A stretch of DNA of 64,000 nt. Origin: Eledone cirrhosa (taxonomy: Eukaryota). Every line of letters begins with the position of its first letter. Position 1 is the stretch's first letter. The notes under the pieces are model-generated. The model saw nothing but the letters and a program-made list of their open reading frames with translations. It ran no database searches and was not told the origin of the DNA. The translations under genes were made by a program, and so were the position numbers. The DNA is taken from positions 61,318,001 through 61,382,000 of the forward strand of contig OZ024745.1 of assembly GCA_964016885.1 (NCBI GenBank), written 5' to 3'. Below are positions 10,141 through 19,470 of the stretch, piece by piece.

Positions 10141-10191
10141 AGTTTAAGCAAAGAATCGCTGCTTTCACCCTTAACGGGATCTTCTGAAACT
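10141..10191 (-). ncRNA. Variant type I hammerhead ribozyme (CAGAAGA core) in the PLE1 3' end
   Basis: Minus strand: AGTTT-CAGAAGA-tCCC-gttaa-GGGt-GAAA-GCAG-cgattct-TTGC-TT-AAACT. Confidence 0.6.
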
Positions 10192-10320
10192 AACAAAGTC
10201 AATCTGTCAACGCAGAAGTGAATATTTCAAAAAACGTTGCAAACGGAGGAAGACAGGAAGACGATACTTTGGTTCGTGGAAACGCTCCCTGGCAAAGAAC
10301 GGGAAAAAACGAAGATAATG

Positions 10321-10500
10321 TATTACTAGTACTTTATTTTATCGACCCCGTAAGGATGAAAGGCAAAGTTAACCTCGGCGGGATCTGAGTTCAAATCCCG
10401 CCGAGGTTAACTTTGCCTTTCATCCTTACGGGGTCGATAAAATAAAGTACCAGTAATACACTGGGAAATTGCTGGCCTTGTGCCTAACGTAGAAACAATT
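10321..10500. mobile_element. Head-to-head palindromic SINE pair inside the PLE1 3' UTR
   Basis: 10321-10384 is the reverse complement of ~10395-10458; centre contains the B box GAGTTCAAATCC. Confidence 0.8.
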
Positions 10501-11295
10501 ATTTGGAGCGTTGAAAACAATTACACGCAAAGACAAAACCACGTTTATGGTATAAAAGAAGTCGTAGACTAATATTCTATTAGGTGGTTCATAGAGACGT
10601 TCTCTGGCAATGAACGGAAAAAACGAAGATAATACGTCATATGTGGAGCGGGAGAACAATTGCACGCAAAGACAAAACCACGTAAATGGTATAACTGAAG
10701 TCGTAGACTAAAATTCTAACTAGGAAACCGAATGATTCTCGGCTTCAGAGTTAACAATAAAGTAAATAAAATACAGTGGTAATTGAAATTAAATAAATAC
10801 ATACACGCATCCATATCCGCACATACACAAGCATACGCGAAAACACTCGCCATAGGTATACAAATATACGCACATATATATATATATATATATATGTGTG
10901 TGTGCGTGTATACAAATAATTAAATAAACGTATATAAATAAATAAATACGTATATAACAAGCGCACACACATACCTACATGTAAATACACATATGTTCGG
11001 AGACGTACGTCAACCAAAACACGAAGTACACATATACACACACCCTACATACGTACGAACCCGCATACTCACACAGACACAAAACTCACGTATACACATA
11101 ACGAAAAGTATATGTACCAGAATATATAAAATATACGCCATAACATATACAATCAAATATACGTACGAGAAAGTATACGTACTTTCACCAAACATACAGG
11201 TAATAGATACTTACCTATACAAATAAGTAATGGTATAAACATAACATATACTTAGCTACCACATCAAGACGTAAAATATCCGCGTATAGATCGTA

Positions 11296-15670: not shown

Positions 15671-17977
15671 TTGAATAATACTAACAATTTTGACTCCTTC
15701 GGCTTTAAAACCTTTAAAAGCCCCCCTCATAACACTCTACTTAACTCCTTTGAAAATGACCTAGTTAAACTAGTTAAGAACATTAAATACAATAAGCACC
15801 ATATTAGAAGCAACACCTTCCTAAACAAACTTAACACTTCTATTAGTGGATTCAAAACTAGTAATAAAATTATTGTACACGCAGATAAAACTAATAACAT
15901 ATACAGCCTAGATTATATTACTTATAGAAAGTTTATATATAATGAACTACATAAAAGCTACAAAAAAACCACCTTGAAAAACTTAGAAGATATTAATGTA
16001 GAGGGTTATAATATAGTGTCTAAACTAGGACTACAGAGGCATACACAACCTTTCACTCCGAACCCCCCTAGATTCTCTCTGAAGGACCATAAGGAGAACT
16101 TCATCAGCAACCCCACGATAAGACTTATCTGCCCTTCCAAGTCCGACATTGGTATTATCAGCAAGAAGATTTTGGATAAAATCATCCCACAAATTAAACA
16201 CAAGATACACCTTAAACAATGGGGAAATACGGGTGAAGTAATTGAATGGTTTAAGGATATCAAGAATAATAAGAACAAAAAATTTGTTCAATTTGATATC
16301 AATTCATACTACACCTCTATTTCCCCTATCCTATTAAATAAGGCACTTATCATGGCCATGGCCAATAGCGACCTGACTAGAGCCCAGGTTGATGTCATCC
16401 TTGCGGCCCGTAAAACCATAATCACCTTCGAGGACCAACTATGGACACGCAAGGATACGCACAACAACTTCGACATAACCATGGGATCTAGTGACTCGGC
16501 GCAGGTCACTGATTTGGTCGGCCTATACCTCCTCAATGAAATCCATAAAGACCTCCCTTACCTCAACGGTGGTTTGTACCGCGATGATGCACTTCTACTC
16601 ATAGAATATAAAAAATTTAATATAGAAAGAACTAGAAAACAACTGCATAAGACATTCAAAAACTTTAACCTTAGTATCACCATGGACAAAAACACTAAAA
16701 ATGTTAACTTCCTAGACGCCACACTATACCTAGACTCAAAAATATATACACCTTTCCATAAGCCTAATGAGAAACTTATTTACGTAGATACCAAGTCTAA
16801 TCACCCTAGATCAATATTAAACTCTATCTCTAAGGGGGTGTCCAATAGAATCTCTAGTCTGTCCTATAACGCAAACATATTTAGCAAAAACTCACAATAT
16901 TATAATCAAGCATTAGCTAGCTCCGGCCATAATATAGAAATTGAGTTCCTACCTAAGAAAACACATAGCTACAACATCATCTCGCACAACATGTCCATGA
17001 GGAAATCTAATAATAGGAATAGCAACCACAAGTGCACCAAAGCGGAGGGTGCCACCGGAAGTAACCATTACCATGGAAACTACTGTGAGGCCTTAGGAGG
17101 AAGCAACACACCAAACACTAAAAGCAAAAATAGAAGAAGAAATAATACATTTTTCAACCCTCCTTTCAACCTAAATGTCTCCACCAACATACCTAGGGCT
17201 TTCTTCTCACTACTAGATAAAAACTTCCCTCTAGGACACAAGTACCACAACCTCTTAAACAAAAACACCATTAAAATCTCTTACTCTACGACGCCTAACT
17301 TAGCATACCACATAGCTAGCAGCAATAATAGTAAAATTAGTTCTTACTTCCAACAAACAAAATCACAACGGGATGCAAACCCTCTAAATACCACTGTAGC
17401 AAGCAACAATAGCAACGGCAGTAACAATAGAAATAACACTAGTATAAGTAATAACACCAGGGTTGTCAACCCGAACACCCAAAATCCTATATCCACCACA
17501 CAGACTTCCGCATTGCATTATAACCAGCGGACTAACGCACAGAATAATTGTAACTGTAGAGCTAATAGAACCTGCCCTTTAGATAAAAAATGCCTAACCA
17601 AGGATGTCATATACTCATGCACAGTCACGACTAATAACTCTTCAGAAACCTATGTAGGCTCCACTTCTAACTGCTTCAAAATCAGATATAACTCGCACAT
17701 CCACTCGTTCAAAAAGCACAGCCTAGCCAACTCCACCTCACTTTCTAGCTACATACACTATCTAAAATCTAAAAATAAACCATACACACTCAAATGGGAA
17801 GTGATAGGCAGCGCGACCTCGTACAAACCACCTAATAAATTCTGTAACCTCTGTATACTAGAGACACACAATATTATCTTCTCCAACCGTAACCTACTTA
17901 ACAAAAAATCTGAGGTGTTTGCAACTTGCCAGCACCGCCTCAGACATTCCTTCCAAAACTTTAAGCCCTATATATAG
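15671..17977 (+). CDS. PLE reverse transcriptase-GIY-YIG endonuclease polyprotein, N-terminally truncated (open frame from 15638, no native ATG)
   Basis: FVQFDINSYY, MGSSDSAQVTDLVG, GLYRDDAL, CNCRANRTCPLDKKC, DVIYSC..TYVGST..FKIRYNSH, CNLCILE, CQH; homologous to the PLE1 ORF. Confidence 0.92.
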   Translation: MNNTNNFDSFGFKTFKSPPHNTLLNSFENDLVKLVKNIKYNKHHIRSNTFLNKLNTSISGFKTSNKIIVHADKTNNIYSLDYITYRKFIYNELHKSYKKTTLKNLEDINVEGYNIVSKLGLQRHTQPFTPNPPRFSLKDHKENFISNPTIRLICPSKSDIGIISKKILDKIIPQIKHKIHLKQWGNTGEVIEWFKDIKNNKNKKFVQFDINSYYTSISPILLNKALIMAMANSDLTRAQVDVILAARKTIITFEDQLWTRKDTHNNFDITMGSSDSAQVTDLVGLYLLNEIHKDLPYLNGGLYRDDALLLIEYKKFNIERTRKQLHKTFKNFNLSITMDKNTKNVNFLDATLYLDSKIYTPFHKPNEKLIYVDTKSNHPRSILNSISKGVSNRISSLSYNANIFSKNSQYYNQALASSGHNIEIEFLPKKTHSYNIISHNMSMRKSNNRNSNHKCTKAEGATGSNHYHGNYCEALGGSNTPNTKSKNRRRNNTFFNPPFNLNVSTNIPRAFFSLLDKNFPLGHKYHNLLNKNTIKISYSTTPNLAYHIASSNNSKISSYFQQTKSQRDANPLNTTVASNNSNGSNNRNNTSISNNTRVVNPNTQNPISTTQTSALHYNQRTNAQNNCNCRANRTCPLDKKCLTKDVIYSCTVTTNNSSETYVGSTSNCFKIRYNSHIHSFKKHSLANSTSLSSYIHYLKSKNKPYTLKWEVIGSATSYKPPNKFCNLCILETHNIIFSNRNLLNKKSEVFATCQHRLRHSFQNFKPYI

Positions 17978-19423
17978 CAATGTCGGACTGGAACCTAACA
18001 CCACATCTAGCATCAAACACCAGAGACACACCCTATACTACATACCCAACACTAGCTGATCCATTATAACACAAACAACGACATCCCTCTGGAACCCTTC
18101 GCAGGGAAAATACCCATTTATACCTCTACGGCAGGTGTGACAACATCCACCCACTTGGACGGCACTACACCGCTCTAAGGGTAATTTGAGCATGAATTGA
18201 TCGGTTGGATGGTGTTGGGCAGAGGAAACACCTTCCTTAGACAGATGTAAAATGATTTAATCGATTAGCGCTGTTGACCAGTAGGACCGGGCTGCGGAGC
18301 GCAGTGAGTGAATGCAATGCAACTGCCGTGCGGGTTGTACGTATATGGATGATCTGACGGTCAGAGAGGGGTCGCGAGGACTGCGGATTGACCTTTGGCC
18401 TGCCTGGGGACGATTATCTTTCGACATCCAATGTAGCAAGTGATGACCCAGATCTTACCAGAGATCATTGGGTCCTGAAGCAATCCTGCAATCACCGCGC
18501 CTGGCCATATGAGCAGACTACAACCACAGAGATCATTAATTTAGAATCCTCGCTCATCATCTATAATTTCCATTTGTAGCACCTTATGATGGGTTAATCC
18601 ACCTTAATAATAATATGATCACCTTCAGCATAATTTAGTTAAACTACTCTATAGTTAGTACACTTTATGCTTTAAAAGTCTCTCTTGGAAGGTGCACCTC
18701 ACCATAGAATTTTAGGGTCTATATTGGGACACATTTTAATGGCTAGATATGGAAACCCCAGAGTTACCTCCCCGCATGCATTAACTCCCCTTAGCCACAC
18801 ACACACTCTTCCGGTATTCAATGGCGTTTCTCGAAACGTAACAACCTCCTGTATCGAACTAAAGAACACCAGACTACGATCTCTAACTGGATTGTCGTGG
18901 ATTATGTGAAAGGCATATAATCGAAATATACACTCCCTTGACCATGAAAATGCCGAAGTACATGAATTACTTGACATCCCTGCGCTGTGCATCTCCAATA
19001 CTTATAACACTTTTAATGCTTGCACTATCTTTAATGCTTATAATATTTCTCCACACACAGACTACATCAATCATATAAAGACTTTGCCACCAGATCTACC
19101 AACCTAACACTCTTATTTACCTACCTAAGTGCCTCTACCACACATATCTCTCTGCCACACTATATAAACAAGACGCACATGCGTGCCACACATATAACAT
19201 TTGCACTATATAACCACTTATCTTCATGTTGTACTTTAACCTATATCTTTGATTTTTGATTGTACCTATTAATATAAATGTAATCTCGAAGTGTGTACTG
19301 CCACTCTAAATTCTGTAATGAATGTTGACCCACAATGTTTGAATATGTATCAATGTTTGAATATGTATTGGTATGTCTCTCGGCTGAAAAGGAGGTCATA
19401 TAACTGTCCATGCATTAATAAAT

Positions 19424-19470
19424 TGCTCCGAAGAATCCAAACCTCGGTTTGGAGGAAACAGCTGTAAGCA
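19424..19470 (+). ncRNA. Variant type I hammerhead ribozyme (CCGAAGA core) in the PLE2 3' end
   Basis: TGCT-CCGAAGA-aTCCAAACCtcGGTTTGGAg-GAAAC-AGCT-GTA-AGCA; same strand as the ORF. Confidence 0.72.

What the first reader, a model, noticed from the sequence alone, without database searches (positions are those of the whole stretch)
10141..19470. Both protein-coding PLEs use non-canonical hammerhead cores at position 4 (CAGAAGA and CCGAAGA)
U4 of CUGANGA is replaced by A in PLE1 and by C in PLE2. The changes recur in independent copies (A in the Helitron-borne copies at 39418 and ~52100-52217, C in the diverged relative at 9116), so they look like family features rather than decay. Most non-coding families keep CUGA. 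Inference: ORF-bearing elements may use attenuated ribozymes, which standard searches would miss.
Basis: partly seen in the sequence, partly recalled or inferred. Interest (0 to 1): 0.7.

Follow-up and report, generated by a model that had tools for sequence, protein, structure and literature searches.

The report
Retrotransposon hammerheads with altered position 4
Two abundant jumping-gene families in this animal genome carry a hammerhead-shaped RNA motif with A or C in place of the textbook U at one core position in about 99% of their copies, so they likely cut themselves slowly (untested), but most protein-coding sister families keep the U, so the change marks particular lineages and not protein-coding elements in general.

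Summary
Both cores are real and family-wide. A4 is in 15,495 of 15,651 PLE1 matches and C4 in 3,756 of 3,808 PLE2 matches. Both elements are Hydra-clade Penelope-like retrotransposons, with a type I hammerhead about 1.1-1.5 kb behind the ORF. Of 14 ORF-linked families with a readable motif, 10 keep U4, 3 have C4 and 1 has A4. Two of the window's 'non-coding' CUGA motifs are truncated ends of ORF-bearing families, and all 26 published Hydra rows read CUGA. C4 is old: it is shared by 11 diverged representatives, in which 0 of 11 core positions vary against 8 of 8 free ones, and it recurs in another family. A4 is confined to one lineage without stem covariation, so a dead motif is not excluded. 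Best reading: weak, still-selected ribozymes, tolerated because PLEs need little cutting. Cleavage is untested; genomic cut-site tests gave nothing for A4 and a weak hint for C4. U4C is known from a viroid, and this scan noted U4C in Hydra-type PLEs of other genomes. I found no natural U4A in two targeted paper searches.

The parts
10141..10191 (-). PLE1 type I hammerhead-like motif: stem I 5 bp (10191-10187 / 10145-10141), core CAGAAGA 10186-10180 with A4 at 10185, stem II of 3 C-G pairs under a U-U mismatch, GAAA 10166-10163, stem III 5 bp with a 7-nt loop, CUU site, predicted cut after 10146
   Evidence: family counts
11317..13401 (-). PLE1 RT + GIY-YIG ORF, Hydra-clade motifs (RWR, SKT), broken by frameshifts near 12360 and 11700
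   Evidence: 713-aa open frames elsewhere
13538..13766 (-). PLE1 upstream partial pLTR (8 nt before the predicted cut site plus tail), joined to an inverted tail extension, in (TA)n
14087..15642 (-). Inverted 5'-truncated copy of the PLE2 3' end; holds the second CCGAAGA motif (core 14172-14166, C4 at 14171)
   Evidence: (100% complementary arms)
15638..17977 (+). PLE2 RT + CxCx5C linker + GIY-YIG ORF, 779 aa open, N-terminus cut off by the inversion (full frame 832 aa)
19424..19470 (+). PLE2 type I hammerhead-like motif: stem I 4 bp, core CCGAAGA 19428-19434 with C4 at 19429, stem II 7 bp under an A-G mismatch, GAA 19455-19457, palindromic stem III ACAGCUGU, GUA site, predicted cut after 19466; 47-nt tail to 19513, then (TA)n
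   Evidence: family counts
9115..9161 (-). 3' stub of a PLE2-clade subfamily; core CCGGAGA (C4 family-wide, G6 private to this copy)
39378..39521 (-). PLE1 3' end carried inside another repeat (Helitron-like by recalled end motif); core CAGAAGA at 39463; tandem copies at 40022 and 40562 have lost G5
52059..52326 (-). Two tandem pieces of the PLE1 3' end inside the same carrier repeat; cores at 52212 and 52144, the second with broken stems
21880..21934 (-). Comparator: canonical CUGAUGA motif, the 3' stub of an ORF-bearing Hydra family (L171-L178)
8120..8164 (+). Comparator: canonical CUGAAGA motif, the 3' stub of an ORF-bearing Hydra family (L179-L186)

Best explanation
These are the 3'-end hammerhead motifs of two Hydra-clade Penelope-like retrotransposon lineages that separately fixed A4 and C4, and they likely still cut the element's RNA, but slowly. 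Shown: the variant letters are fixed in each family, the three helices and the other 10 core letters are kept, and most ORF-bearing sister families keep U4. Inferred: PLE2's motif would work as a dimer through its palindromic stem III, while PLE1's 5-bp stem III could allow a monomer. Cutting would release unit-length RNA from tandem transcripts. Nearly all inserted copies run uninterrupted across the predicted cut site, so the RNA that gets reverse-transcribed is uncut or re-ligated there, and a low rate is enough. Position 4, like 10.1-11.1, can then drift in single lineages. This is much better supported for C4 than for A4.
For: Fixation: 15,495 of 15,651; 3,756 of 3,808. In contigs of public runs laid without any motif requirement, no change at PLE1 position 4 was listed at 3% or more, and PLE2 C4T was listed for one contig in each of 2 of 4 runs. 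C4 clade: in 11 chosen representatives, 0 of 11 core columns vary, against 8 of 8 free motif columns, 4 of 24 stem columns and 46 of 68 flank columns. Copies retrieved by the tail alone show C4 in 16 of 17 in-register hits. Stem III stays self-complementary, AATT/AGTT/AGCT/GATT. The sister CCGAUGA family has an endonuclease about 59-76% identical to PLE2's. A further family with a long stem II and a G10.1-C11.1 pair has C4 in 97 of 100 listed of 733 matches. The EN tree places PLE1 beside a U4 family and apart from the C4 clade. Literature: a natural U4C viroid hammerhead is slower in vitro but infective, and U10.1-U11.1 is the best-tolerated mismatch (PMC3088659). PLE minimal hammerheads are weak in vitro (PMC4209133). 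Weak hint: 11 PLE2 matches begin at the predicted cut site against 2 at -4 and 0 at +4.
Against: No cleavage data. In a mutational scan, CUGA-region single mutants had low activity (PMC9901934). PLE1 junctions are not enriched at the cut site: 65, against 67 at -4 and 50 at +4, and the 30 inspected are mostly microhomology joins inside the element. The PLE2 hint shrinks to about 7 events after removing 2 fold-back duplicates and 2 microhomology deletions, and its +4 control cannot match (TA)n-flanked joins. Covariation in the C4 clade is one pair and not above shuffles (102 of 500). The 5' half of the core was fixed by my search patterns, so part of the invariance is by construction. PLE1 shows no stem covariation. 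Both monomers are predicted to prefer another fold (hammerhead helices in about 0.9% and 0.3% of the ensemble; MFE z -0.04 and -1.31). In the CCGAUGA family, 85 of 729 matches have U4, so C4 is not strictly required there.
Confidence: 0.55

Rival explanations
1. The A4 motif of PLE1 (and perhaps C4) is catalytically dead. The change arose in a master copy shortly before a burst and hitchhiked, because these elements do not need cleavage.
For: PLE1 is star-like, with no stem covariation and no cut-site junction excess. It carries two departures (A4 and the U-U pair). CUGA mutants had low activity. Craig 2021 note that hammerhead-less PLEs proliferate well and that the motifs may parasitise PLEs.
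Against: PLE1 keeps 10 of 11 core letters and three helices whose sequences differ wholly from those of its U4 sister, at about 0.85 changes per site in the endonuclease. For C4, the core stayed fixed while flanks and free positions diverged.
Confidence: 0.25
2. The fold is kept for a non-catalytic or protein-assisted job, such as binding of the RT/endonuclease or positioning the 3' tail for priming, so position 4 is free to change.
For: Nearly all copies keep the tail beyond the cut site. Cervera and De la Pena suggest cofactors or other functions. Monomer folding is poor.
Against: G8 and G12 (the catalytic residues, from established knowledge) and the NUH site are kept, and H17 varies only between A and C in the C4 clade, which is the pattern expected for cleavage.
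Confidence: 0.15
3. One reading: autonomous, ORF-bearing PLEs are selected for attenuated cores to protect their mRNA, while non-coding elements keep CUGA.
For: The two ORF-bearing elements in the window both deviate. They are very abundant, and PLE2 has many intact ORFs at 98-100% identity.
Against: 10 of 14 ORF-linked families have U4. The 'non-coding' motifs at 21934 and 8120 belong to ORF-bearing families. All 26 published Hydra rows have CUGA.
Confidence: 0.05

Closest known systems
Hammerheads of Hydra-clade PLEs (Craig et al. 2021, PMC8557442; passages, section 11, supplement File S1/S2 tables seen)
   Same: Position near the 3' end of a (TA)n-targeting PLE with a C-terminal GIY-YIG domain and RWK/DKT/CxCx5C motifs; type I topology; short, often palindromic stem III; the U-U mismatch at 10.1-11.1 occurs in many listed Hydra families
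   Different: All 26 Hydra rows read CUGA; here A4 and C4 are fixed in families of thousands of copies, and PLE2 has A-G at 10.1-11.1
[quoted passage not shown]
   Same: Short stem I, no evident loop-loop contact, palindromic stem III for dimers (PLE2), families with core changes, low activity expected
   Different: The core change named in the parts read is U3-A8, not position 4; their consensus has an extra base after A9 and G10.1-C11.1, which PLE1 and PLE2 lack
Natural U4C viroid hammerhead (Ambros and Flores 1998; not held, known here only through Perreault et al. 2011, PMC3088659, section 8 and passages)
   Same: U4C in a natural hammerhead, slower in vitro but biologically sufficient
   Different: A viroid variant, where Perreault et al. 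propose that tertiary contacts offset core changes; here whole retrotransposon lineages with no evident tertiary contact, and U4A has no such precedent in what I searched

Membership tests
Hydra-clade PLE | Single ORF with RT and C-terminal GIY-YIG endonuclease | tested here: met
   832-aa PLE2 frame with YRDD and YVG; PLE1 43% identical over 289 aa. Pfam gave no hit below E 0.03, so domain names rest on motifs and on the paper's description
Hydra-clade PLE | RWK motif, DKT in place of DKG, CxCx5C linker | tested here: met
   PLE2: RWR, DKT, CNCRANRTC. PLE1: RWR, SKT, CNCRNRADC in intact copies
Hydra-clade PLE | Insertion into (TA)n; partial tandem and inverted structure with a tail | tested here: met
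   head-to-tail full copies 4,199 bp apart
Hydra-clade PLE | Phylogenetic placement with named Hydra families | not tested
   The tree held only 19 endonucleases from this genome, with no published references
Hammerhead ribozyme (type I) | Three helices around the core, type I order, A15.1-U16.1 pair, NUH site | tested here: met
   scanner control 232 motifs versus 6 on reversed sequence
Hammerhead ribozyme (type I) | Canonical core C3 U4 G5 A6 N7 G8 A9 / G12 A13 A14 | tested here: not met
   10 of 11 core letters are kept; U4 is A or C. Natural active exceptions, including U4C, are on record
Hammerhead ribozyme (type I) | Paired 10.1-11.1 | tested here: not met
   U-U (PLE1) and A-G (PLE2); U-U is a tolerated, known variant
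Hammerhead ribozyme (type I) | Stem covariation across homologues | tested here: inconclusive
   C4 clade: 95.5% of cells paired, one two-sided change, 102 of 500 shuffles as high. PLE1: no variation to test
Hammerhead ribozyme (type I) | Site-specific self-cleavage | not testable with these tools
   No RNA holder was listed; junction proxies negative for PLE1 and weak for PLE2

The most novel reading that the evidence does not exclude
U4A is an active natural hammerhead core, and position 4 has left U at least twice, probably three times, in one genome's most successful retrotransposon lineages because slower self-cleavage raises retrotransposition. [quoted passage not shown]
Probability: 0.2. 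Interest if true: 0.7.

Novelty: new variant of a known kind. Interest (0 to 1): 0.42.

Why it matters
What PLE hammerheads do is still open. Here one genome holds natural near-pairs: related elements with U4, C4 and A4 cores, with intact young masters for C4. That makes a direct test possible of whether cleavage rate matters for transposition. If A4 cuts, the list of 'invariant' hammerhead core letters shrinks. If it does not, a family of over 15,000 copies spread with a dead ribozyme, which supports the view that the motif is dispensable. Either way, descriptors fixed on CUGANGA miss about 21,000 motifs in this genome (sum, less U4 copies).

Tried and rejected
Rfam: no hammerhead among the best 150 of 310 rows on the window, nor on either variant or the canonical 8120 motif. 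A DNA search with the PLE2 motif found nothing (the tool skips very common words), so patterns were used. RNA evidence: no RNA holder listed; only contigs were laid. Cut-site junction test: negative for PLE1 (65 / 67 / 50) and a weak hint for PLE2 (11 / 2 / 0, unequal controls). Idea that position 4 covaries with 11.1 (A4-U11.1 and C4-G11.1 pair in the predicted alternative folds): rejected, since other C4 families have A or C at 11.1. Idea that position 4 covaries with N7: rejected, since C4 occurs with A7 and U7, and U4 occurs with A7. Idea that C4 is held against strong CpG-driven reversion: not supported. C4T is only 27 of 3,808 in PLE2, 0 of 100 and 1 of 100 in two other families, and 85 of 729 in the CCGAUGA family, where G5A is 2 of the first 100; whether those 85 include a U4 sub-lineage is unresolved. 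Four ORF families (L101, L109, L162, L164) gave no clean motif and are left out of the 14. Papers not held: Lunse 2017, Nelson and Uhlenbeck 2008, Ambros and Flores 1998, Martick and Scott 2006, Scott 2013. PMC11014351 passages held nothing on U4A or U4C.
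Full report
Observation. A structure-aware scan of the window with position 4 left free finds CAGAAGA at 10186 (minus strand) and CCGAAGA at 19428 (plus) and 14172 (minus, the inverted arm; arms 100% complementary). Each sits in a type I arrangement with stems I-III, GAAA and an NUH site. PLE1 has a 5-bp stem I, three C-G pairs under a U-U mismatch in stem II, and a 5-bp stem III. PLE2 has a 4-bp stem I, 7 bp under an A-G mismatch, and the palindrome ACAGCUGU, which pairs with itself at -11.1 kcal/mol. The motifs lie 1,130 and 1,453 nt behind their ORFs, followed by a short tail and (TA)n.

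The elements. Both ORFs are RT plus C-terminal GIY-YIG with RWR, DKT/SKT and CxCx5C motifs, matching the Hydra clade as described in PMC8557442 (section 11). Pfam did not name them, and no tree with published families was built. PLE2 is young: all 150 scored matches are 98-100% identical, and many lie in 832-aa open frames. PLE1 is older: other copies are 85-92% identical to the window's frameshifted copy, and several have 713-aa frames. The genome is 3.0 Gb.

Family feature or decay. With N at position 4, PLE1 gives 15,651 exact matches, of which 156 are not A; the first 100 of these are spread over G, T and C. PLE2 gives 3,808 matches, of which 52 are not C. The 9116 subfamily gives 712 (C4 in 100 of 100 listed). 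In four public runs laid at 80% likeness, no change at PLE1 position 4 was listed at 3% or more; C4T was listed for one contig in each of two of four runs. The letters are therefore fixed in the master elements.

Is it tied to having an ORF? I fetched 1.4 Mb of the genome in 140 stretches; 200 kb were chosen around PLE1 sites and 200 kb around a PLE2 cluster, so A4 and C4 are over-sampled. With the window (1,464,000 bases), a scanner found 232 motifs scoring 13 or more, against 6 on reversed sequence: 179 U4, 35 A4, 15 C4 and 3 G4. The A4 and C4 groups are PLE1 and the PLE2 clade. Following endonuclease hits downstream gave 14 ORF-linked families with a readable motif: 10 U4, 3 C4 and 1 A4; four more gave no clean motif. 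The link is multi-copy for the L055/L177 family (23 other copies colinear from endonuclease to motif; U4 in all 6 of 8 loci where the script found the motif), the L154/L181 family (6 of 8 loci), the L212 family (three loci) and the L090/L161 family (two loci, the core read in one). It is single-copy or nearly so for the others. The window's CUGA motifs at 21934 and 8120 match the last ~430 nt (92-94%) and ~300 nt (78-92%) of the first two of these families, so they are truncated PLE stubs and not non-coding families. In print, all 26 Hydra rows of File S2 of PMC8557442 read CUGA, many with U-U at 10.1-11.1. On a 19-row endonuclease tree (140 columns, 7 of 16 inner branches open), PLE1 groups with a U3-U4-A8 family (97/95) and PLE2 with the CCGAUGA family (100/98); the third C4 family is a long branch of unsure place.

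Is the variant still under selection? For C4, largely yes. Eleven representatives of PLE2-clade subfamilies (chosen from 94 copies in 21 flank clusters) vary at 0 of 11 core columns, 4 of 24 stem columns, 8 of 8 free motif columns and 46 of 68 gap-free flank columns. My patterns fixed the 5' half of the core, so part of this is built in. Retrieval by the tail alone gave 20 hits, 17 in register, 16 with C4 and scattered private damage. Covariation is thin: one pair (A-U to G-U to G-C in stem III), reached by 102 of 500 shuffles. The CCGAUGA family has 729 matches with 85 U4. A third family, with a ~95-nt stem II closed by G-C, has 733 matches and C4 in 97 of 100 listed. For A4 there is only one lineage with no stem variation (36 copies). 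Its case rests on having kept 10 core letters and three helices with sequences unlike its sister's, which does not date the A4 change.

Does it cut? Unknown. No RNA run was listed. Genomic copies that start at the predicted cut site are not enriched for PLE1 (65, against 67 at -4 and 50 at +4); the 30 inspected are mostly microhomology joins. For PLE2 the counts are 11, 2 and 0, about 7 events after removing duplicates and deletions, with an unequal control. Monomers are predicted to favour other folds. From papers: CUGA-region single mutants had low activity in a type III hammerhead scan (PMC9901934, passages). A natural U4C variant is much slower in vitro yet permits viroid infectivity, and U10.1-U11.1 is the best-tolerated mismatch (PMC3088659, section 8 and passages). 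PLE minimal hammerheads cut weakly and only as dimers or with a stabilised stem III (PMC4209133, parts 1-2 of 4).

Mechanism. Shown: fixed letters, kept fold, lineage-restricted distribution, and copies that run across the cut site into the tail. Inferred: the template for integration is uncut or re-ligated at this site, so only a little cleavage is needed to release or circularise unit RNA, and rate-lowering changes at 4 and 10.1-11.1 can be fixed in single lineages. I put this at 0.55, a dead hitchhiking motif (mainly for A4) at 0.25, a non-catalytic or protein-assisted role at 0.15, and the ORF rule at 0.05.

Novelty. Hammerheads in Hydra PLEs and core variants in PLE families are known, and U4C is known in a viroid. 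Searches for 'hammerhead' with 'U4A' (0 papers), with 'U4A/U4C/catalytic core' and with 'U4C' gave no PLE case and no natural U4A. Subscription papers, Lunse 2017 (recalled as describing many small PLE hammerhead variants) and the supplements of PMC4209133 were not seen. bioRxiv 10.64898/2026.07.22.740005 (part 1 of 5) treats animal retrozymes as PLE derivatives. Unreviewed notes of this scan report U4C in Hydra-type PLEs of other genomes and position-6 variants elsewhere, so fixed core variants look like a recurring PLE trait. Verdict: new variant of a known kind, interest 0.42.

Noticed in passing
whole sample of 1.46 Mb (window and L071-L170, L187-L226): About 160 hammerhead-like motifs per Mb in dozens of families, many with stem II inserts of 50-120 nt that short descriptors would miss.
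   Followed up: partly
window 56391-56362 (-); L120, L125, L164, L212-L213, L218, L203: Several unrelated families with the U3-A8 swap, including PLE1's sister family with a long stem III.
   Followed up: partly
window 39200-40800 and 51870-52600: A Helitron-like repeat (label from recalled end motifs) has captured the PLE1 3' end with its motif; it forms ~540-nt tandem units in which G5 is lost.
   Followed up: partly
L033, L038, L056, L109: Recurrent very short PLE1 copies that begin at the 5' edge of stem I, some as fold-back pairs centred there; possibly a reverse-transcription stop at the motif.
   Followed up: no
L095, L102, L105 and window 13591-13766: PLE1 has a ~110-nt extension beyond the usual tail at only one end of insertions, longer than the 30-40 bp described for PLEs.
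   Followed up: no
G000 contigs C9-C28: C4-to-T copies appear concentrated on the smaller chromosomes, perhaps reflecting methylation differences; not quantified.
   Followed up: no
window 235-1367 (-): Three tandem ~530-nt units, each with a CUGAUGA hammerhead (retrozyme-like array).
   Followed up: no
window 41711-43330 and 44804-46043: Tandem arrays with 49-nt and 47-nt units.
   Followed up: no
window 26414-26579: Fold-back pair of tRNA-like sequences (Rfam tRNA 42 bits).
   Followed up: no
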